Below, in pieces: positions 4,005 to 37,980 of a DNA stretch of 64,000 nt. The stretch lies in IMG/VR virus record IMGVR_UViG_3300027804_000038, positions 229,851 to 293,850 of that record. One strand, written 5' to 3'. Made by a program: the position numbers and the translations under genes. This stretch comes from a virus. Taxonomy: Duplodnaviria > Caudoviricetes. Position 1 is the stretch's first letter; the number at the start of each line of letters is the position of its first letter. The notes under the pieces were generated by a model, which did not search any database, had not been told where the DNA came from, and worked only from the letters and a program-made list of their open reading frames with translations.

Positions 4005-4080
4005 GACTTCGTAGCTCAGCTGGTTTTAGAGCATCGCACTTTTAATGCGAGGGTCATGGGTTCGAGTCCCATCGGGGTCA
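4005..4080 (+). tRNA. tRNA-Lys(TTT)
   Basis: Cloverleaf, TCGCA-CTTTTAA-TGCGA. Confidence 0.92.
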
Positions 4081-4090
4081 CTTTTTATAC

Positions 4091-13343: not shown

Positions 13344-14969
13344 ATGGCTAAATTCAGAAACACAGGATTAAAAGAGAAGTTGGACTCTACAAAACCAAAG
13401 AAAAATCTCGTCGCAAAAATGTCGGTTCCTAAACCAAACACAACTAACCTACAAGGTTATGAAGCTTATGATATCGATAATTGGCTACGACTAATCTCAC
13501 TGTTAAACACATCAAAACTTCAACCACAATTTTATCGTTCAGAGAATGATACAATGCGTGAACTGAAGAAATTAATTGATGTATGTGGTAAAGAAGACCC
13601 ATACTTCGCGGCACAGTGTATTGTATACTCTCGTTGTGTCGGAGAAGGTATGCGTTCAATCAACCACTTGGCGGCCGTTTACTTGGCACCATATATGAGT
13701 GGTAAAGAATGGTCAAAACGTTTCTTCTCCGTATGGGATAAGAAAAACCAAAAAGGTGGAACGATTTTCCGTCCTGATGATATGGCAGAAATCGTTGCGG
13801 CATATACTGCGATGAATGATAAGAGTATCACAAACGCAATGAAAAAAGGTTTCCGTGAAGCACTTGAAAAAATGGATGCTTATAGTCTGTTAAAGTACAA
13901 ATCGGCAGTACTTGACATGATTAATTTGGTACATCCAGACCCAAATGAATCAAAAGCTCTTGTTGATTACATGGATAAAAAAGTACCAGCGTTCGAAGCA
14001 ATCATTAAAGGGTATAATGTATCTGCGGATACTTGGGAAGTTGCACAATCTGACGCAGGTCAAATTGTTGCACAAGCGGTTCGTGAAGGTAAACTCTCAG
14101 AATCAGAAGCTAAAGAAGTATTAACTGAACAAAAGTCAGAAAACTGGAAAGGGTTATTGACTGAAGGTAAGTTGGGTATTTTGGCCGCTATTCGAAATAT
14201 GAGAAACATTCTTACCAACAAACCTGAGGCGAAAACAATTGACACTCTGTGTGATTTGGTTTCAAATCCTGAATTGATTAAAAAAGGTAAGATTATGCCA
14301 TACCAACTTGACTTGGCAAATGAAGTAATGAACTCTGAGTTTAGTGATACTAACTCAAGAAAGTTGTCAAAAGCTTTATTGACAGGTTATGAGTTGGCGG
14401 TTCCGAACCTTAAAGAACTACTTACAGGTAACAACCTTGTAATCATTGATATGTCAGGTTCTATGGACACTGAAGTACTTGACCCTAACAGAAAAACAAA
14501 TTACAAGAGTACTTGTATGGATAAAGCAAGTCTAATCGGAATGACAATTGCTAAGGCGACAAATGCAGATGTTATCCGTTTCGGTTCAAGTGCTGAGTAT
14601 ATTACTTATAACCCTAACCAAGATGTGTTCAGTTTGGCAAAATCTATCCGTAAAGGAATGGGTGGTACAAACTTGTCACAAGCTTGGGCGAAGGCTCAAA
14701 GTTCAGGTAGAAAATACGACCGTGTTTTTATCTTGTCTGACAATGAGTGTAACATGGGTTCAACATACCGTAATTATACAAGTTATGTTGAAAAGGTTGG
14801 TGACCCATACGTATATTCAATTGACCTAGCATCTTACGGAACTACCGCAATTGCAGGACCTAAAGTAAGATACTACTACGGTTATGGATACTCAATGTTT
14901 GATGATATCGCTAAGAGTGAGTTCAACCCAAACTATCATATTGAAAAAATCCGTAAGATTGAAATTTAA
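13344..14969 (+). CDS. rsr: Ro60/Rsr ribonucleoprotein (TROVE plus vWA)
   Basis: 541 aa; TROVE-type N-terminus (LNTSKLQPQFY, G-M-R-S), vWA IDMSGSM, GGTNLS, VFILSDNE, YSIDLASYG. Confidence 0.85.
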   Translation: MAKFRNTGLKEKLDSTKPKKNLVAKMSVPKPNTTNLQGYEAYDIDNWLRLISLLNTSKLQPQFYRSENDTMRELKKLIDVCGKEDPYFAAQCIVYSRCVGEGMRSINHLAAVYLAPYMSGKEWSKRFFSVWDKKNQKGGTIFRPDDMAEIVAAYTAMNDKSITNAMKKGFREALEKMDAYSLLKYKSAVLDMINLVHPDPNESKALVDYMDKKVPAFEAIIKGYNVSADTWEVAQSDAGQIVAQAVREGKLSESEAKEVLTEQKSENWKGLLTEGKLGILAAIRNMRNILTNKPEAKTIDTLCDLVSNPELIKKGKIMPYQLDLANEVMNSEFSDTNSRKLSKALLTGYELAVPNLKELLTGNNLVIIDMSGSMDTEVLDPNRKTNYKSTCMDKASLIGMTIAKATNADVIRFGSSAEYITYNPNQDVFSLAKSIRKGMGGTNLSQAWAKAQSSGRKYDRVFILSDNECNMGSTYRNYTSYVEKVGDPYVYSIDLASYGTTAIAGPKVRYYYGYGYSMFDDIAKSEFNPNYHIEKIRKIEI

Positions 14970-16617: not shown

Positions 16618-16714
16618 TAAAAATAAGATTTTACTTGACAAGAGTATATTTATAACTTACCTTTGTCAAACAATTCAGTAAAGACTGAAACGTTCTTTGA
16701 AAAATTAAAAAAAT

Positions 16715-16853
16715 TGACGTAGTAAGAATAGAGTTACTTCGCATATTGGTTCGAATCCAATATTTGCCGCAATTTTGGCAGATTAGACAAATGGATAAGT
16801 CGACGGTCTCATAAACTGTTATAGAAAAACAACCTCTACTCGTTTTCTCGTCA
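16715..16853 (+). ncRNA. Carrier RNA 1 enclosing a circularly permuted tRNA(CAT)
   Basis: Order is T arm, 3' acceptor, linker, 5' acceptor, D arm, anticodon arm, inside TGACG/CGTCA and TAGAG/CTCTA stems. Confidence 0.85.
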
Positions 16854-16860
16854 TAAAATA

Positions 16861-16994
16861 TTGATTGATAGTAATAGATAAGGTTACTTCGTAAAATAGC
16901 TCAATTGGATGAGCATTTGTATCAGGAACAAAAGGATACGGGTTCAACTCCCGTTTTTACAACCAAAAAAACCTTCCTAACTTTCTTCAATCAA
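16861..16994 (+). ncRNA. Carrier RNA 2 enclosing an unpermuted tRNA(CAG) with CCA
   Basis: TTGATTGA/TCAATCAA and AAGGTT/AACCTT stems; cloverleaf 16890-16965. Confidence 0.82.
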
Positions 16995-17001
16995 ACTTAT
17001 T

Positions 17002-17133
17002 ATCAGATAGTGAAGAGACAGTTACTTCAAATTTTTCTGGAACAAAAAAGGCTCGGGTTCGAATCCCGACTCCTCTTCGGGGGATGTGGTGTAGCGGTAG
17101 CACTAGATAACACTGTTTCTATTTTCTTCTGAT
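17002..17133 (+). ncRNA. Carrier RNA 3 enclosing a permuted tRNA(GGA) with UUCG-capped acceptor stem (YrlA-like topology)
   Basis: ATCAGA/TCTGAT and AGAGACAG/CTGTTTCT stems; order is anticodon arm, T arm, closed acceptor, D arm. Confidence 0.82.
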
Positions 17134-17138
17134 TAAAC

Positions 17139-17222
17139 GCCGAGGTGATGAAAAGGTAGACATGACAGACTTAAAATCTGTTGGGCAGTTCGCCCGTGCG
17201 GGTTCGAATCCCGCCCTCGGTA
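17139..17222 (+). tRNA. tRNA-Leu(TAA)
   Basis: ACAGA-CTTAAAA-TCTGT, long V arm. Confidence 0.92.
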
Positions 17223-17231
17223 CTAAAACAA

Positions 17232-17306
17232 GCCTCCATAGCTCAGCAGGTTTAGAGCGACTGATTTGTAATCAGTAGGTCGTTGGTTCGATTCCGACTG
17301 GAGGCT
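17232..17306 (+). tRNA. tRNA-Thr(TGT)
   Basis: ACTGA-TTTGTAA-TCAGT. Confidence 0.92.
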
Positions 17307-17317
17307 CTAATATATAT

Positions 17318-17392
17318 GCTCGGTTCGTCTAGACTGGTCTAGGACACTACCCTTTCACGGTATAAACACGGGTTCGAATCCCGTACCGAGTA
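17318..17392 (+). tRNA. tRNA-Glu(TTC)
   Basis: TCGTCTAGACTGGTCTAGGAC D arm, loop CTTTCAC. Confidence 0.9.
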
Positions 17393-17395
17393 CTA

Positions 17396-17481
17396 AATGA
17401 AGTAGTAAGGATAAGAGTTACTTCGCAAATTACTTTTAATGATTCAAGCAAAAACAAACTCTTTCCAACGTTCTCTTCATT
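17396..17481 (+). ncRNA. Carrier RNA 4 enclosing an isolated Lys(TTT) anticodon stem-loop
   Basis: AATGAAG/CTTCATT and AAGAGTT/AACTCTT stems; AATTA-CTTTTAA-TGATT. Confidence 0.78.
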
Positions 17482-17486
17482 AATTT

Positions 17487-17571
17487 GGGAGTGTCACCAT
17501 AGCGGCGATTGGCCCGCACTGTAAATGCGGTACCTAAGGTTCCATCGTAGGTTCGAGTCCTACCGCTCCCA
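17487..17571 (+). tRNA. tRNA-Tyr(GTA)
   Basis: CCGCA-CTGTAAA-TGCGG, long V arm. Confidence 0.9.
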
Positions 17572-17572
17572 C

Positions 17573-17787
17573 AAAACACGACGAAAATAGGATTAAAGCT
17601 CCTGTTATCACGACACCAAGATACGGTACGAGTGCGCGCTTAATGACTGTTGCGGTGAGGAGGGAATAAGTAGGGTTTAGCTAACCCAATTACGAAAACC
17701 TCATAACAAAAATAAAGGACCACCAATCTCAGGTGGTGTAATAAAATGTTTGGGTCGGATGTGGATAATGCTTCCACGCAGTGTTTT
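17573..17787 (+). ncRNA. Candidate structured ncRNA at end of RNA operon
   Basis: Terminal stem AAAACAC/GTGTTTT encloses several hairpins; GC-rich, no long ORF. Confidence 0.45.
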
Positions 17788-17862
17788 AAATTTAAAAAAA
17801 AAACAAACTTTAAAAAGGGCCCTTCCTGAAATATTGGCTTGTTGGGCCCGAGTTTGTTAAAT

Positions 17863-17890
17863 CCCCCACCTTTTGAGTGGGGTTTTTTAT
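17863..17890 (+). terminator. Intrinsic terminator
   Basis: CCCCAC..GTGGGG plus T run. Confidence 0.7.
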
Positions 17891-17924
17891 TGACATTATA
17901 ATTTTAATATTATATAATTGAATT

Positions 17925-30440: not shown

Positions 30441-30458
30441 TTTTTGTATATTTGCAAT

Positions 30459-31157
30459 ATGATTCTAAAGATAGAAAAAGATATAAAAGGAATTTTCCCA
30501 AAAATTTGGATATGTTCTGACCCCCACTACAACCACAAAAATATTTGTAGAGGTGTTACGAATTGGAGAACCTTGGATGGAGAAGTTCCCGAAGAACAAA
30601 CTCGCGATTTCCCAACCATTGAGAAAATGAACGAGGCAATTCTGAATGGGATTAACTGGAATGTTGGACAAGATGACATTTTAATTTGTCTTGGAGACTG
30701 GTCTTTTGGTGGGTTTGAGTCTATTAAACAATTCAGAGATAGAATTGTTTGTAAAAATGTACACTTAGTACTTGGTAATCACGACCACCACATTGAACGT
30801 AACAGAGAGAACATTAAGGCTTTATTTAGTTCAGTTTCAGAATACCTGAGAGTTGTTGTGATGGAACCGATTAAAAAAGATGTTACTAAACGACATGAGT
30901 TTGTATGTATGCACTACCCAATACAAAGTTGGGACGGTTTAAATAAAGGAGTTTATCATCTACACGGACATGTACACTTACCAAATGAACGAAAGTTTGG
31001 TCGTGGTAAGAAAATGGACGTTGGTTTTGACGGACATCCTGAATTCAGACCGTACAATCTACTAAAAGAAGTTGTGCCGATGTTAAGTAAGAGAGAAATG
31101 TTGTCGGATATGTCAAATGACCATCACCTTGAAAGATTATTAAACAGTGATAAATAA
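30459..31157 (+). CDS. Calcineurin-like metallophosphoesterase
   Basis: SDPHYNH, LGDW, LGNHD, HGHVH. Confidence 0.92.
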   Translation: MILKIEKDIKGIFPKIWICSDPHYNHKNICRGVTNWRTLDGEVPEEQTRDFPTIEKMNEAILNGINWNVGQDDILICLGDWSFGGFESIKQFRDRIVCKNVHLVLGNHDHHIERNRENIKALFSSVSEYLRVVVMEPIKKDVTKRHEFVCMHYPIQSWDGLNKGVYHLHGHVHLPNERKFGRGKKMDVGFDGHPEFRPYNLLKEVVPMLSKREMLSDMSNDHHLERLLNSDK

Positions 31158-32754: not shown

Positions 32755-33171
32755 ATGATGAAAACACTTTTTATTGTTAGAGGAGTACCAGGTTCAGGTA
32801 AATCAACGTTTGCTCATGCTATTTGGAATAATTATGCTATTTGTGAAGCCGACCAGTACTTCATAGATAAAGAAACAGGTGAATATAAGTTTAATCCTGA
32901 TGAACTAAAAAACGCTCACCAATGGTGTAGAGATGAGGTTGAAACAAAAATGAAAGATAATCAAGCAAATCCTCAATACTACCCTGAAATTGTAGTTTCA
33001 AATACATTCACACAGGAGTGGGAAATGGAACCTTACTTTAAACTAGCTGAAAAGTATGGTTATAAAGTATTTTCTTTTATTGTTGAGAATCGACACGGGG
33101 GCGTGAATACTCATGGTGTTCCAGAAGATAAAATTCAAGTAATGAAAGATAGATTTCAAATCAAACTATGA
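32755..33171 (+). CDS. P-loop kinase (AAA_33, polynucleotide-kinase-like)
   Basis: RGVPGSGKST, EADQYF, VSNTF, HGVP. Confidence 0.85.
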   Translation: MMKTLFIVRGVPGSGKSTFAHAIWNNYAICEADQYFIDKETGEYKFNPDELKNAHQWCRDEVETKMKDNQANPQYYPEIVVSNTFTQEWEMEPYFKLAEKYGYKVFSFIVENRHGGVNTHGVPEDKIQVMKDRFQIKL

Positions 33172-34373: not shown

Positions 34374-35528
34374 ATGAAAATGATGGAAAATAATAATTCA
34401 GTGTGCTATGTAGCACGTATTGACGAAATTAAAGAAATACCTGGCGCTGATAACATTGTACAAGGTGTTATTGGAGGATGGAATTGTATTATTCAAAAAG
34501 AACAATACCAAGCTGGCGACTTAGTAGTTGTTGCAACTACAGATGCGGTTATTCCTTTAGATTTATCTGATGCGATGAACGTGACTAATTATTTACGTAA
34601 AGGTCAACGTGTACGTACTGTTAAGTTGAGAGGTGTTTATTCTGAATGTTTAATCATTCCTTTAAAATACGCTCGTGAAGTAGCTAAACATGCTAACACA
34701 AAATGGGATGAAGGTGAAGACATGATGGATGTATTAAAGATATTTAAATACGAACCACCTGCAGTACAAATACAATTATCTTCAGGTAAAAAGGTAAGAT
34801 ATCACCAAAACCCGAACTTCCATGTTTACTATAAGTTCCCAAACTTGAAGAATGTTGCAGGAATGTTTACCGAAGAAGATACTGTTGAAATTACTCGTAA
34901 AATTCACGGTACAAATGCTCGTTATGGGATTGTTAAGAAAACTAAATTAACATTATGGGATAAGTTTAAGAAGTTTATTGGATTGGCGGATAAATGGATT
35001 GAGTATGAGTATGTGTATGGTTCTCATAATGTTGAAAAGGGGTCCGACTCACAAGGGTTTTATTCAACTGATGTGTGGAGAGAGGTTGCTGACAAATACC
35101 AAATCAAAAAGAAGTTATGGGATTATGTTAAAAACAACGCTATGGAACCAGAAATTGGAGATGGGATTACAATATACGGTGAAATCTATGGTGCGGGTAT
35201 CCAAAAGAACTATGAATACGGTTTAAATGATATTAAATTTGTGGGGTTCGATGTTAAAGAAAACGGAGAGTATTTAAGTCCTATTAATGCTAAACTACAG
35301 ATTAAATATCTTTTAGAATTGCCATATGTCGAAATCTTACATTTCGGAAAATGGTCTCAAGAGGTACAAGACAAATATACATTTAATAACTTTATTGAAG
35401 GTACAAAAGTACCACATGAAGGTATTGTGATTAAATATGAGTCGGGTGGACGTAATAAAGTGGCAAAAGTAATCAACCCAGATTATTTAATTTATGCTGA
35501 AAAAAAGGATGTTGGGGACTCTCACTAA
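34374..35528 (+). CDS. RNA ligase, DRB0094-like with N-terminal OB domain
   Basis: EIPGADNI, motif I KIHGTN, YGEIYG, FDV, EGIVIK, KVIN. Confidence 0.88.
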   Translation: MKMMENNNSVCYVARIDEIKEIPGADNIVQGVIGGWNCIIQKEQYQAGDLVVVATTDAVIPLDLSDAMNVTNYLRKGQRVRTVKLRGVYSECLIIPLKYAREVAKHANTKWDEGEDMMDVLKIFKYEPPAVQIQLSSGKKVRYHQNPNFHVYYKFPNLKNVAGMFTEEDTVEITRKIHGTNARYGIVKKTKLTLWDKFKKFIGLADKWIEYEYVYGSHNVEKGSDSQGFYSTDVWREVADKYQIKKKLWDYVKNNAMEPEIGDGITIYGEIYGAGIQKNYEYGLNDIKFVGFDVKENGEYLSPINAKLQIKYLLELPYVEILHFGKWSQEVQDKYTFNNFIEGTKVPHEGIVIKYESGGRNKVAKVINPDYLIYAEKKDVGDSH

Positions 35529-35560: not shown

Positions 35561-35998
35561 ATGATAGAAAAAGAAAGGAAATTTATTTTAAAGTACCTCC
35601 CATCAGGACTTAAAAAACAAAAAATTAAACAAGGATACATCTCAAATAACAGTAAAACTCAAGTTAGAGTTAGAATTATTGATGATTCATCTGCCTTTAT
35701 AACTGTTAAGTTTAAAATTGATAATGAGACTAGACAAGAGTTTGAATATAAAATACCAATCGATGAAGGTTTTGAAATATATCATTCATGTAGTTTAAAA
35801 TTAGAAAAAATTAGATACAAAACAAAATATGAAAATAACCAAATTGATATTGATGTTTATCAAAATGGAAAGTCTGTTGTTGAAATTGAATATGAAGATG
35901 TTTTAACAAAATTACCTGATTATTGTGGTGAAGAGGTTACTGGAGTTAAAGAATGGTCTAACTCATCAATAGCAAAATCAATAATGGAAAATTATTAA
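35561..35998 (+). CDS. CYTH-domain protein
   Basis: IEKERKF, RVRI, RQEFEY, EIE. Confidence 0.88.
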   Translation: MIEKERKFILKYLPSGLKKQKIKQGYISNNSKTQVRVRIIDDSSAFITVKFKIDNETRQEFEYKIPIDEGFEIYHSCSLKLEKIRYKTKYENNQIDIDVYQNGKSVVEIEYEDVLTKLPDYCGEEVTGVKEWSNSSIAKSIMENY

Positions 35999-36321: not shown

Positions 36322-37980
36322 TTGGAATGTTTATTGGATATCTTGCAACTAAACACATGTTTGAAAAAGAAAATGATTGAAAAATTAATTAAAAATAGAA
36401 CTCCATATCTAGGTAAGATGATATTGAAGTTTGAGAAATACCCTCACTATACAAGTAGTCAGGATGGTAAATTAAATAAAGTTCACCTTAATTTATGGTT
36501 TACCAAATTGGTTTCTAGATTCATACCAAGACAGGTAATGGAAGGTCAGACCAATGTTGACCCTGAAAAAGTTAAGTTAATTGAAAAATATACTGATGGA
36601 GTTATTGGAACTCACAAGTGGGGAAATAATGATGAGTATGTTTTGGAGGATTCATTCCTAACTAAAGACGGAAAATATATAGGTAATATTGATACTGCTT
36701 GGTGGTATTTTAAAAACGGAATGACCGTTTGTGAAGAGTATCCACACGGAGTTGCTATTGTTTGGAATACCGCGAACTCTGATAAAACATTGATGAGTGG
36801 ACAAGATGGGATTAAAGGTTATTATGGTTATTCACATCGTGGAGGAGCTTTATTAACAATCGGGGATAGAATTTTTGATAAGGAGTATAATCCTGTTGTT
36901 GAAGATTACGATAATAAGGAGTTTAAAAAGTGGTGGAAAAAATACGCCAAGTCATATAAAAAGGGTGACGATTTTGATAGAAAACACATTTATAATGATG
37001 GAATTAAATCAGTAATACCATTTAATAAACGAGGAAAACATATTATTAAAAATTGGTCAGACGCAATGAATTCGGCAATAAACGTGTCAAAATATTTAGG
37101 ATAACATGAAAATAATACCATTCTTTAACTTAACTTGGACTGAGGACTTTAAACAAATTGCCATAGTCCCAACAATATTCCTAACTAAGAGTTATGGAAA
37201 TAGATACAATTTTGGAATTAATTTTTTATGTTTTGATTTTGGACTATGGATACTAATAAGAAAATAAACATTATTGAAGATTTAAGTAGGTATGAAGATT
37301 ATCTTACTGTTGGAAAATTAAAGAAGTTTTTGGAAGAACATCCTGAACTACCTGACGACGCAAATGTTTTAATCCAAAGGGTCGAAGATAGGTATTATGA
37401 AGAACATGGATGGGGTGTTGTTTTGAAGGAAGGTGACCATTATCACATGTATAAAGAACAGAACTATCGGATGAATGAGGAGATTAAAAGAAGAAAGAAC
37501 GGAGAACACCCAAAGTATGAAATGGAAGACCCATCAAAATTCATAGTTGAATTGGATGACTCAATGAAAGACCAATACCATCCAGGATGGTGTTGTTTAA
37601 AATATAAAGATGATAACAATTTATATATTGATTTACATTATTAGACAATGGCAACACTAGAAACACAATACTGGAACTTTCTAGAAAAGAATCCTAAATC
37701 TACGTTCACATTTGAGGAGTGGAAACAAAAATGGGCGGATGATATGAAACCATCATTTGATAAATTAAACAATCCATCAGTTGAATGGAAATTATATCAG
37801 AACTACGTAAATACTTTCATAGGACACGAAGATATCCCAAGTTTTGAATGGTTCAAACACGAATTGGAAAATAACAAAGAGTTCAGTGAGAGGTATGGTG
37901 AAACAGATTCCATATATTGTCCTGTATGTTCGGGATGTGTGATAATTGAAACTGAATCGGAGATTAAGATTATAAGATGA
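36322..37980 (+). CDS. Three hypothetical genes (36322-37104, 37246-37644, 37648-37980)
   Basis: Long ORFs with typical codon usage. Confidence 0.55.

What the first reader, a model, noticed from the sequence alone, without database searches (positions are those of the whole stretch)
17396..17481. Carrier presenting a bare tRNA-Lys(UUU) anticodon stem-loop: possible anticodon-nuclease decoy
Seen: the only cargo is a 5-bp hairpin AATTA-CTTTTAA-TGATT (17428-17444). Its loop is identical to that of the real tRNA-Lys at 4005. Established: tRNA-Lys(UUU) is the target of PrrC and is cleaved by PARIS AriB. Inference: this RNA is a minimal decoy or sacrificial substrate for anti-phage anticodon nucleases.
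Basis: partly seen in the sequence, partly recalled or inferred. Interest (0 to 1): 0.72.

Follow-up and report, generated by a model that had tools for sequence, protein, structure and literature searches.

The report
Minimal phage Y-RNA with Lys-anticodon tip
This 86-base stretch between two tRNA genes of a giant freshwater phage is the smallest of four likely partner RNAs of the phage's own Ro60 protein; its tip copies the anticodon loop of lysine tRNA, but nothing shows that it is a decoy for tRNA-cutting defences.

Summary
At 17428-17444 a 5-bp hairpin carries the loop CUUUUAA, and it shares 10 consecutive bases with the phage's own tRNA-Lys(UUU). In the 294-kb genome only these two sites put that loop on a stem on the + strand.

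The hairpin sits at the tip of a stem / internal loop / stem "handle". The genome has four such handles, all 1.7-2.5 kb downstream of a Ro60 (TROVE+vWA) gene. I found the same handle about 340 times beside Ro60 genes in some 140 phage and metagenome loci, almost always on the Ro60 strand, with strong compensatory changes in both helices.

So this is most likely a Y RNA of a variant family that gave no match to Rfam's YrlA model or any other Rfam family here. [quoted passage not shown]

The decoy reading stays speculative:
- None of 30 other short-tip units has this hairpin.
- The unit is missing at the same site in the closest non-identical relatives.
- Lys is only one of more than 25 anticodon-like loops shown by the family.
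- One roughly 93%-identical variant keeps the hairpin.

Other reports of this scan describe similar anticodon-tipped Ro60-linked RNAs in other phages. I did not check them.

The parts
13344..14969 (+). Ro60 orthologue (541 aa, TROVE + Ro60-type vWA), the presumed protein partner
   Evidence: Pfam TROVE 25.9 bits (cut-off 23); vWA_Ro60 24.4 bits, below its cut-off of 27.7. More than 2000 homologues at E<=1e-10, several named '60 kDa SS-A/Ro ribonucleoprotein' by their source.
17318..17393 (+). tRNA-Glu(UUC). Its 3' processing would set the 5' end of the unit.
   Evidence: ARAGORN; Rfam tRNA 56.2 bits. Only 2 nt lie between it and the outer stem.
17396..17402 (+). Outer stem, 5' strand (AAUGAAG)
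   Evidence: Pairs with 17475-17481, pair probabilities 0.84-1.00. The equivalent helix covaries in the family: 6 of 6 pairs have changes on both sides.
17403..17408 (+). Conserved 5' internal-loop motif UAGUAA (family: UAG[U/C]AA), the candidate Ro60 contact
   Evidence: TAG and the sixth base (A) are invariant in alignment A2. TAGTAA occurs in 97 and TAGCAA in 71 of 208 distinct units.
17409..17419 (+). Inner helix, 5' strand (GGA-U-AAGAGUU, U17412 bulged)
   Evidence: Pairs with 17457-17466, probabilities 0.84-1.00. The X18 variant changes A17413>U together with U17463>G and still predicts the helix with one bulged U.
17417..17425 (+). Invariant motif GUUACUUCG at the top of the inner helix
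   Evidence: GTTACTTC is invariant in all 18 aligned short units. It was part of the search pattern, so its presence is by construction. The strand bias is not: 157 forward against 10 reverse hits, and 182 against 9.
17425..17449 (+). Apical module: 2-bp GC clamp (G17425-C17449, C17426-G17448) enclosing the hairpin
   Evidence: MFE structure.
17428..17444 (+). Hairpin AAUUA-CUUUUAA-UGAUU, the look-alike of the tRNA-Lys(UUU) anticodon arm
   Evidence: Not conserved in the other short units. Unchanged in the ~93%-identical variant.
17450..17458 (+). A-rich linker (AAAAACAAA) before the 3' strand of the inner helix; A17457 and A17458 are also the last two pairs of that helix
   Evidence: The last 12 insert positions are 42-71% A at most positions across 208 units. 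In the X18 variant three substitutions fall here.
17457..17466 (+). Inner helix, 3' strand (AACUCUUUCC)
17467..17474 (+). Conserved 3' internal-loop motif AACGUUCU (family: AAYNUUCU / AYUUUCU)
17475..17481 (+). Outer stem, 3' strand (CUUCAUU), followed by a 5-nt tail AAUUU
17487..17572 (+). tRNA-Tyr(GUA). RNase P cleavage at its 5' end would set the 3' end of the unit.
   Evidence: ARAGORN; Rfam tRNA 45.8 bits.
16713..17134 (+). Sister units 1-3 with the same handle and tRNA-like inserts of 80-92 nt (about 16713-16853, 16861-16994, 17002-17133)
   Evidence: The pattern TAGTRA-N6-12-TTACTTC occurs exactly 4 times in the genome, all on the + strand and all here; the backwards control gives 0. 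Pairing partners.
4005..4081 (+). The phage's genuine tRNA-Lys(UUU), source of the comparison
   Evidence: ARAGORN; Rfam tRNA 67.2 bits; sequence.

Best explanation
Unit 17396-17481 is a real small non-coding RNA gene. It is the minimal member of a family of Y-RNA-like partner RNAs of phage Ro60 that matches nothing in Rfam 15 here.

Shown by comparison: the handle is an outer stem, an internal loop (UAGUAA opposite AACGUUCU), an inner helix with one bulged U, and the invariant GUUACUUCG. It recurs beside Ro60 genes, on the Ro60 strand, with compensatory changes in both helices.

Inferred:
1. The RNA is made as part of one tRNA / Y-RNA transcript running from about 16640 to the terminator-like hairpin at 17864-17882.
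2. It is released by 3' processing of tRNA-Glu and by RNase P cleavage at tRNA-Tyr.
3. It docks on the phage Ro60 through the internal loop and flanking helices.
4. It acts like the short Y RNAs of bacteria (YrlB, Yrn2), as a gate or tether that modulates what Ro60 and a host exoribonuclease such as PNPase act on during infection.

Its tip is best read as what is left of a tRNA-derived insert: a Lys-type anticodon arm that has lost the D arm, T arm and most of the acceptor stem. Whether the Lys-like loop is itself used is open.
For: Family and Ro60 linkage:
- Ro60 gene lies 2.4 kb upstream on the same strand.
- Exactly four handles in 294 kb, all here.
- Motif hits beside Ro60 homologues: 157 forward against 10 reverse in 59 sources (window plus IMG/VR loci), and 182 against 9 in 80 metagenome loci.

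Structure of the handle:
- In 18 short units, 84.6% of cells are paired against 58.8% in shuffles (0 of 500 shuffles reach this).
- Covariation score is 0.757 against 0.296 in shuffles and at most 0.26 when partners are slid.
- 12 of 13 pairs change on both sides.
- Swapping 3' halves between units raises duplex energy from -14.5 to -6.4 kcal/mol.

Short units as a class: 31 of 208 distinct units have short inserts, and they occur in 16 of 49 loci with 3 or more units.

Known precedent:
- Chen et al. [quoted passage not shown] Here the loop has 5 pyrimidines of 7.
- A phage Ro60 binding two phage-encoded Y-like RNAs of stem-bulge-stem shape, and acting on host PNPase, is published for Thermus phage phiLo (PMC12135203).

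Processing and expression:
- Only 2 nt and 5 nt separate the unit from the flanking tRNAs.
- No promoter-like or terminator-like site lies between them.
- RNA-library contigs span the unit joined to its tRNA neighbours: X17 17410-17582 exact, X20 17336-17536.

tRNA origin of the tip:
- 10-nt identity with tRNA-Lys.
- Other units carry full Lys-type inserts starting right after GUUACUUCG (L161, L162, L133, L222).
- A deletion intermediate exists in another class (L207:2734).
Against: - No binding or expression experiment exists. RNA-library contigs can contain DNA and cannot show ends.
- The published Ro60-binding motif of bacterial Y RNAs (GNCGAAN0-1G, or CGAA) is absent.
- Rfam YrlA gives no match on the unit.
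- With a fairer control, the reversed downstream window, the duplex-energy gap is small: -14.2 against -12.4, with the true window better in 78 of 111 units. The structural case therefore rests on the alignment statistics and the conserved loop motifs.
- The unit is confined to one lineage. It is absent at the same site in relatives with Ro60 97% and 85% identical and was not found in IMG/VR. It could be a recent, possibly decaying copy.
- The hairpin is thermodynamically marginal.
Confidence: 0.65

Rival explanations
1. Decoy. The Ro60-bound RNA presents a bare tRNA-Lys(UUU) anticodon arm that is bound or cut by host anticodon nucleases (PrrC, RloC, PARIS AriB) in place of tRNA-Lys. This would spare translation or titrate the nuclease.
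For: - Exact CUUUUAA loop and 10-nt identity with the phage tRNA-Lys on a 5-bp stem, improbable by chance.
- Anticodon stem-loop analogues are used as PrrC substrates (Jiang et al. 2002, listed in the references of PMC2610378).
- The hairpin and GUUACUUCG (40 nt) carry none of the 26 substitutions of a ~93%-identical variant. My calculation gives P about 0.04 for 40 nt and about 0.24 for the 17-nt hairpin alone.
- Lys-type arms arose in at least four other unit classes.
- The phage encodes 25 tRNAs and an RNA ligase, an AAA_33 kinase-like protein and a metallophosphoesterase. This is the enzyme set expected for healing and sealing cut tRNA.
Against: - The loop is not conserved among the 30 other short units.
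- The unit is absent from the nearest relatives and from five related whole phage records.
- Lys loops are 7 of about 115 canonical anticodon-like hairpins, behind GUU (15), CAU (13) and UGG (8).
- The all-A/U stem with one U.G pair is unlike the G-C-rich stem of real tRNA-Lys and is marginally stable.
- From my own knowledge: PrrC favours the modified wobble base mnm5s2U34 and t6A37. Whether a bare arm gets these modifications is unknown.
- No anticodon nuclease of the unknown host is known.
Confidence: 0.1
2. Decaying copy. The unit is a handle whose tRNA-like insert was mostly deleted. It may still bind Ro60 or be inert, and the Lys-like hairpin is a leftover with no role.
For: - Lineage-restricted and absent at the syntenic site in close relatives.
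- Short inserts across the family are heterogeneous. About half carry a D-loop-like UGG motif instead.
- The L207:2734 deletion intermediate.
- Weak hairpin.
Against: - The handle is intact: all helices and both loop motifs are present.
- It is maintained by a paired change (A17413>U with U17463>G) in the diverged variant.
- It is identical in three further assemblies from other samples.
- Short units recur in a third of well-sampled loci.
- The hairpin is unchanged in the variant.
Confidence: 0.15
3. Bait for other readers of the tRNA-Lys anticodon. The Ro60 particle would use the arm to recruit or titrate proteins such as lysyl-tRNA synthetase or the U34/A37 modification enzymes, not nucleases.
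For: - YrlA modules are substrates of tRNA-modifying and tRNA-processing enzymes (PMC4201824).
- The family displays many anticodon-like arms.
Against: Same lack of conservation as for the decoy reading. There is no protein evidence at all.
Confidence: 0.05
4. Plain tRNA-operon spacer or processing signal unrelated to Ro60.
For: It lies between two tRNAs with very short gaps.
Against: - It has the full handle found only beside Ro60 genes, with covariation.
- Other spacers in the tRNA arrays lack it.
Confidence: 0.03

Closest known systems
Short bacterial Y RNAs: S. Typhimurium YrlB, M. smegmatis YrlB, D. radiodurans Yrn2 (Chen et al. 2014, PMC4201824)
   Same: - Encoded next to Ro60 together with a tRNA-like Y RNA.
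- The ends pair into a long hairpin interrupted by an internal loop.
- Small pyrimidine-rich apical loop.
- Processed from a common precursor with its neighbours (in M. smegmatis).
   Different: - The internal-loop motif is UAGUAA / AAYNUUCU, not GNCGAAN0-1G.
- There is an invariant GUUACUUCG and an A-rich linker.
- The tip is an exact copy of a tRNA anticodon loop.
- It sits inside a phage tRNA array.
- Ro60 binding is untested.
YrlA (Rfam RF02553), the tRNA-like Y RNA of bacteria and mycobacteriophages
   Same: - Partner of Ro60, with a module derived from tRNA.
- The sister units 1-3 of this locus have such modules.
   Different: - No match of the YrlA covariance model to this unit.
- From my own knowledge of Wang et al. 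2018: YrlA has T and D arms and an acceptor-like stem but no anticodon arm. This unit has only an anticodon-arm look-alike.
Thermus phage phiLo Ro60 with Yrl1 and Yrl2 (PMC12135203)
   Same: - A phage-encoded Ro60 with phage-encoded Y-like RNAs of stem-bulge-stem shape close to the gene.
- The proposed role is to interfere with host RNA decay or defence.
   Different: - The phiLo RNAs carry the CGAA motif.
- In the passages I read they are not described as bearing anticodon-like tips or as sitting in tRNA arrays.
- The phiLo complex is shown experimentally; this one is not.
tRNA-Lys(UUU) anticodon stem-loop as substrate of PrrC and RloC (PMC2610378 and the papers it cites); phage tRNAs that escape tRNA-targeting defences, such as T5 tRNA-Lys against PARIS (my own knowledge, not checked here)
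   Same: Loop CUUUUAA on a 5-bp stem, in a phage that also carries its own tRNA-Lys.
   Different: - Known counter-measures are repair enzymes or replacement tRNAs, not decoy hairpins.
- The stem is A/U-only.
- Modification state is unknown.
- No nuclease is known for the host.

Membership tests
Y RNA (Ro60 partner RNA), functional class | Encoded within a few kb of a Ro60/Rsr gene | tested here: met
   Ro60 lies at 13344-14969 and the unit 2.4 kb downstream on the same strand. The handle co-occurs with Ro60 homologues in about 94 of some 140 loci.
Y RNA (Ro60 partner RNA), functional class | The 5' and 3' ends pair into a stem interrupted by a conserved bulge or internal loop | tested here: met
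   MFE and pair probabilities. Covariation on 18 homologues is 0.757 against 0.296 in shuffles, 0 of 500.
Y RNA (Ro60 partner RNA), functional class | Conserved Ro60-contact motif (GGUCCGA in animals, GNCGAAN0-1G or CGAA in bacteria and phage phiLo) | tested here: not met
   The motif is absent from the unit. The conserved loop here is UAG[U/C]AA.
Y RNA (Ro60 partner RNA), functional class | Physically bound and stabilised by Ro60 | not testable with these tools
   Needs RIP, EMSA or a structure.
YrlA, Rfam RF02553 (and other Rfam families) | Match to the covariance model at or above the gathering score | tested here: not met
   No family at gathering score other than tRNA. At E<=10 the only YrlA match (16.3 bits, gathering score 69) lies on the true tRNAs at 17167-17292, not on this unit.
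YrlB/Yrn2-type short Y RNA | [quoted passage not shown] | tested here: met
   The 7-nt loop CUUUUAA has 5 pyrimidines. Sister units 1-3 are tRNA-like. The definition comes from PMC4201824.
tRNA gene | Cloverleaf recognised by ARAGORN or the Rfam tRNA model | tested here: not met
   No call at 17394-17486.
tRNA-Lys(UUU) anticodon-arm mimic | 7-nt loop C32-U33-UUU-A37-A38 closed by a 5-bp stem | tested here: met
   Kept in the one ~93%-identical variant. Absent from all 30 other short units, from the nearest relatives and from five related phage records.
Anticodon-nuclease substrate or decoy | Cleaved or bound by PrrC, RloC or AriB, and protects tRNA-Lys | not testable with these tools
   Biochemical and genetic assays are required.
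Anticodon-nuclease substrate or decoy | Wobble and position-37 modifications (mnm5s2U34, t6A37) that PrrC favours | not testable with these tools
   Needs mass spectrometry or primer extension on the native RNA.

The most novel reading that the evidence does not exclude
Phage Ro60 particles may be display platforms for tRNA anticodon arms. Here the display would be reduced to a bare tRNA-Lys(UUU) arm that baits host enzymes which read or cut anticodon loops (PrrC, RloC, PARIS-type nucleases). It could soak them up, or hand them or their products to a Ro60-tethered exonuclease. That would be an RNA-decoy counter-defence. The many different 'anticodons' seen across the family would then reflect an arms race with different tRNA-targeting defences.
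Probability: 0.1. Interest if true: 0.85.

Novelty: new variant of a known kind. Interest (0 to 1): 0.5.

Why it matters
Ro60 and Y RNAs are known in animals, bacteria and a few phages, but what the RNA tips do is largely open. This family is large: over 2000 Ro60 homologues and hundreds of handles in freshwater and other phages. It matches no Rfam family searched, and its tips are recognisable tRNA parts.

The unit studied here is the simplest member, a handle plus one anticodon-like hairpin. That makes it the cleanest construct for two questions:
- Does the handle bind the phage Ro60?
- Does a displayed anticodon arm matter?

If it does matter, it would link Ro60 particles to the conflict over tRNAs between phages and bacterial defences, a link already hinted at by the bacterial rsr-yrlBA-rtcBA operon that responds to damaged tRNAs (PMC7790460). 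If it does not, the unit is simply a reduced Y RNA, useful for defining the minimal handle.

Tried and rejected
- Phage GenBank collection: blastn of 16800-17700 gave only tRNA matches and no relative of the unit.
- IMG/VR scan for the inner-helix sequences of this unit: 0 hits.
- IMG/VR scan with TAGTAA-N6-12-TTACTTCG: about 119 loci, nearly all single chance hits, so the pattern is too loose.
- IMG/VR scan with TTACTTCG-N3-9-ACTTTTAATG: 30 loci. Only two are real handles (the L161 and L162 contigs, long Lys-type inserts). The rest are coding sequence.
- IMG/VR scan with GTTACTTCGC-N18-30-AGCAAAA, meant to find orthologues whatever their loop: 58 loci. Two contigs carry one real handle, a tRNA-like unit (a third motif match looks like coding sequence), and none is an orthologue of this unit.
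- Near-identical strains L191-L193 are 99.8-100% identical over the array and so uninformative.
- Duplex energy as evidence of pairing: the swap control is strong, but the reversed-window control is weak at -14.2 against -12.4. I do not rest the case on energies.
- Short inserts generally presenting anticodon-like hairpins: 4 of 31 against 1.6 expected, P about 0.05. Not convincing.
- RNA evidence: metatranscriptome contigs cover the unit, but such libraries can hold DNA and contigs show no ends. Parts without cover mean nothing. One contig (X18 record 23) seems to join a tRNA 3' end to tRNA-Tyr with 20 other letters in place of the unit, but its short side is only 20 nt and it may come from another organism.
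- RtcB: none in the genome.
- Rnl1 family PF09511: the search rang in no control genome, so it says nothing.
- A Bacteroidota-type -7 box (TAnnTTTG) upstream of unit 1 is present but no more frequent than chance.
- A small ORF on the - strand (17436-17579, 47 aa) overlaps tRNA-Tyr. I dismissed it.
- A loop-to-linker pseudoknot (UUUU with AAAAA) is possible on paper, but the other short units have no such U-rich loop. I dropped it.

Full report
**What is there.** The window is the last 64 kb of a 293,850-bp virus record with about 30% G+C and 25 tRNA genes. The finding lies in the 93-nt gap between tRNA-Glu (17318-17393) and tRNA-Tyr (17487-17572). The phage's genuine tRNA-Lys(UUU) has UCGCA-CUUUUAA-UGCGA at 4034-4050. 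The two share the 10-mer ACUUUUAAUG.

Genome-wide, 84 (+) and 126 (-) copies of CTTTTAA exist. On the + strand only tRNA-Lys and this site carry a stem of 4 bp or more. On the - strand one copy has a 5-bp stem. The resemblance is therefore not a chance product of an A+T-rich genome.

The hairpin is weak, however. It has four A-U pairs and one U.G pair, and it does not fold as an isolated 17-mer. In the whole RNA its pairs have probability 0.70-0.81.

**The carrier.** The hairpin is the tip of a longer fold:
- outer stem 17396-17402 with 17475-17481;
- internal loop UAGUAA (17403-17408) opposite AACGUUCU (17467-17474);
- inner helix 17409-17419 with 17457-17466, U17412 bulged;
- the motif GUUACUUCG (17417-17425);
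- a 2-bp GC clamp, the hairpin and an A-rich linker.

The 5' half recurs three more times just upstream. The pattern TAGTRA-N6-12-TTACTTC occurs exactly four times in the genome, all on the + strand between 16720 and 17424, with no hit for the backwards control. A 541-aa Ro60 orthologue (TROVE plus Ro60-type vWA) is encoded at 13344-14969 on the same strand.

**Is the carrier a real, Ro60-linked RNA family?** The Ro60 protein has more than 2000 homologues at E<=1e-10, most of them 541 aa long. I fetched 57 IMG/VR loci and 80 metagenome loci around such genes. A relaxed 5' motif hits the Ro60 strand 157 and 182 times, against 10 and 9 on the other strand.

For most units a 3' partner can be found that pairs with both helices and carries the loop AAYNUUCU or AYUUUCU. 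This gives 208 distinct well-defined units.

An alignment of 18 whole short units (A2) gives an RNAalifold consensus of 13 pairs, 12 of them with compensatory changes. On that structure:
- 84.6% of cells pair, against 58.8% in shuffles (0 of 500);
- the covariation score is 0.757, against 0.296 in shuffles;
- the score is at most 0.26 when the partners are slid.

Swapping 3' halves between units raises the duplex energy from -14.5 to -6.4 kcal/mol. A stricter control with reversed downstream windows is much less discriminating (-14.2 against -12.4), so I rely on the alignment statistics.

Rfam 15 has no family for the unit. YrlA gives only a 16-bit match on the neighbouring true tRNAs.

**What kind of member is unit 4?** Insert lengths are bimodal: about 66-125 nt for tRNA-like inserts, several of them circularly permuted, and about 16-36 nt (44 at most) for short ones. 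Short units are 31 of 208 distinct units. They occur in 16 of 49 loci with three or more units.

Chen et al. [quoted passage not shown] They also report that M. smegmatis YrlA and YrlB are cut from one precursor (PMC4201824). Unit 4 fits that description.

It differs in the internal-loop motif. The published GNCGAAN0-1G / CGAA motif is absent and UAG[U/C]AA takes its place.

A phage Ro60 that binds two phage-encoded Y-like RNAs and affects host PNPase is published for Thermus phage phiLo (PMC12135203). A survey of jumbo phages lists TROVE proteins under RNA repair (PMC7824862).

**Expression and processing.** Between the array's start and a terminator-like hairpin at 17864-17882 there is no promoter-like or terminator-like site that would separate the unit from its tRNA neighbours. 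The gaps to the tRNAs are 2 nt and 5 nt. tRNA 3' processing and RNase P would therefore release an RNA of about 90 nt with a 5-nt AAUUU tail. This is inferred.

Contigs of metatranscriptome libraries cover the unit together with its neighbours (X17 17410-17582 exact; X20 17336-17536). Such libraries may contain DNA, and contigs show no ends.

**Is the Lys-like tip conserved?**

*Close strains.* Three further assemblies are 99.8-100% identical over the array and so carry no information.

*The one informative variant.* A 437-nt contig about 93% identical (X18) carries the unit. Its six changes within or next to the unit are:
- A17413>U together with U17463>G, which keeps the inner helix with one bulged U;
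- three changes in the A-rich linker;
- one change just past the outer stem.

No change falls in 17414-17453, which holds GUUACUUCG and the hairpin. Against 26 substitutions over the remaining ~327 aligned nt, I calculate P about 0.04 for the 40 nt and only about 0.24 for the 17-nt hairpin.

*Further out.*
- The relatives with Ro60 97% identical (L201, L251) and 85% identical (L185) share units 1 and 3. Their homology ends at window position 17134, and they lack the tRNA-Leu/Thr/Glu/unit 4/Tyr block there.
- None of the other 30 distinct short inserts has the hairpin.
- The hairpin columns of A2 behave like shuffles.
- Two IMG/VR scans designed to catch orthologues found none.
- Five related phage records, two of them complete, have no GUUACUUC followed by CUUUUAA.

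*Recurrence elsewhere in the family.* Lys-type arms do recur in other classes with long inserts:
- L161 and L162: GCAACA-CUUUUAA-UGUU, followed by a tRNA-Lys-like variable loop and T arm;
- L133 and L222;
- L159;
- L183.

But over all 208 units the canonical anticodon-like hairpins span 28 triplets: GUU 15, CAU 13, UGG 8, UUU 7, and so on. Orthologous units differ in their triplet.

**Reading.** The tip is most simply a remnant of a tRNA-derived insert that kept only the anticodon arm.
- A comparable deletion intermediate exists in another class (L207:2734 keeps a D arm and a CAU arm).
- About half of the short inserts keep a D-loop-like UGG motif instead: 15 of 31, against 3.4 expected.

The unit as a whole looks functional. 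The handle is intact and is maintained by a paired change in the variant. I therefore favour a YrlB-like short Y RNA whose Lys-like loop may or may not be used (0.65).

The decoy idea (0.10) is not excluded:
- anticodon stem-loops are accepted PrrC substrates (reference list of PMC2610378);
- the phage carries an RNA ligase (34374-35528), an AAA_33 kinase-like protein (32755-33171) and a metallophosphoesterase (30444-31157). Together these resemble a heal-and-seal tRNA repair set.

Against it stand the comparative pattern, the A/U-only stem and the unknown modification state.

A decaying copy (0.15), bait for other tRNA-Lys readers (0.05) and a plain spacer (0.03) are the other options.

**Relation to the rest of the scan.** Other reports of this scan on the sister units of this locus reach the same Y-RNA reading (e1-5364019, e1-5364034, e1-5364035). 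Notes on other phage genomes describe Ro60-linked small RNAs with anticodon-like tips, including tRNA-Lys(UUU) (e1-5402594, e1-5402197). I did not verify those. If they hold, anticodon display is a recurrent theme beyond this family.

**Verdict.** This is a new variant of a known kind: a Y RNA with a new handle and an anticodon-arm tip. The decoy function is unproven and comparatively weak. Interest is moderate (0.5).

Noticed in passing
window 17573-17863 (+), with 17864-17882 and 17890-17918: The 291 nt between tRNA-Tyr and a terminator-like hairpin fold far better than shuffles: -79.1 kcal/mol, z = -3.27, 0 of 200 shuffles as good. An exact RNA-library contig covers 17587-17838. No Rfam family matches. 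This may be another structured RNA of the same operon. A perfect TTGACA-17-TATAAT follows at 17890-17918.
   Followed up: partly
window 30444-31157, 32755-33171, 34374-35528, 35561-35998, 36322-37104: A cluster of RNA-repair-type genes: metallophosphoesterase, AAA_33 kinase-like protein, and an RNA ligase with a PHA02142 OB fold. A CYTH protein and a Tad6-like Thoeris inhibitor lie alongside. No RtcB anywhere in the genome.
   Followed up: partly
short-insert units, e.g. L129:7886, L135:2695, L157:2192, L159:12024, L183:9507, L008:3487: 15 of 31 distinct short inserts carry a UAUGGA / UUUGGU / UAAGGA-type motif 1-8 nt (one at 21 nt) after GUUACUUCG, against 3.4 +/- 1.7 in shuffles. It may be a D-loop (G18 G19) relic. 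Unit 4 lacks it. Several of these units are close relatives, so the count is inflated.
   Followed up: partly
tRNA-like units, e.g. L134:7935, L136:5182, L141:7710, L168:7899; window 17008 class: Orthologous units keep the anticodon-like stem but change the triplet. The class of window unit 3 shows GGA, UGA, GAA and UUU. Another class shows UCA, UUA and UAA, i.e. triplets that would read stop codons.
   Followed up: no
L207:2734: A class-1 unit (T-arm-first permuted tRNA-like) that has lost the T arm and the closed acceptor stem. It keeps only a D arm and a CAU anticodon arm, so it is a deletion intermediate between long and short inserts.
   Followed up: no
L201:3056-3130 and L251:1697-1771 against window 16890-16965: The homologue (90% identical) of window unit 2's embedded 'tRNA-Leu(CAG)' is called tRNA-Leu(TAG) in the relatives with Ro60 97% identical. 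My 5' motif search did not detect a handle around it there.
   Followed up: no
G000:C1:49741-50133 (-), outside the window: ARAGORN calls a tmRNA with an unusual tag peptide, GNVINKLQTIGLIRTEEVSVA. Not examined further.
   Followed up: no
L191:1-458 (upstream of the window's Ro60 region in a near-identical strain); window 16658-16665: Two weak hints of a Bacteroidota host. One is a CHU_C (type IX secretion sorting) domain gene. The other is a TACCTTTG box upstream of unit 1, although that box is no more frequent than chance. All holders of the DNA are freshwater, lake or estuary metagenomes.
   Followed up: partly
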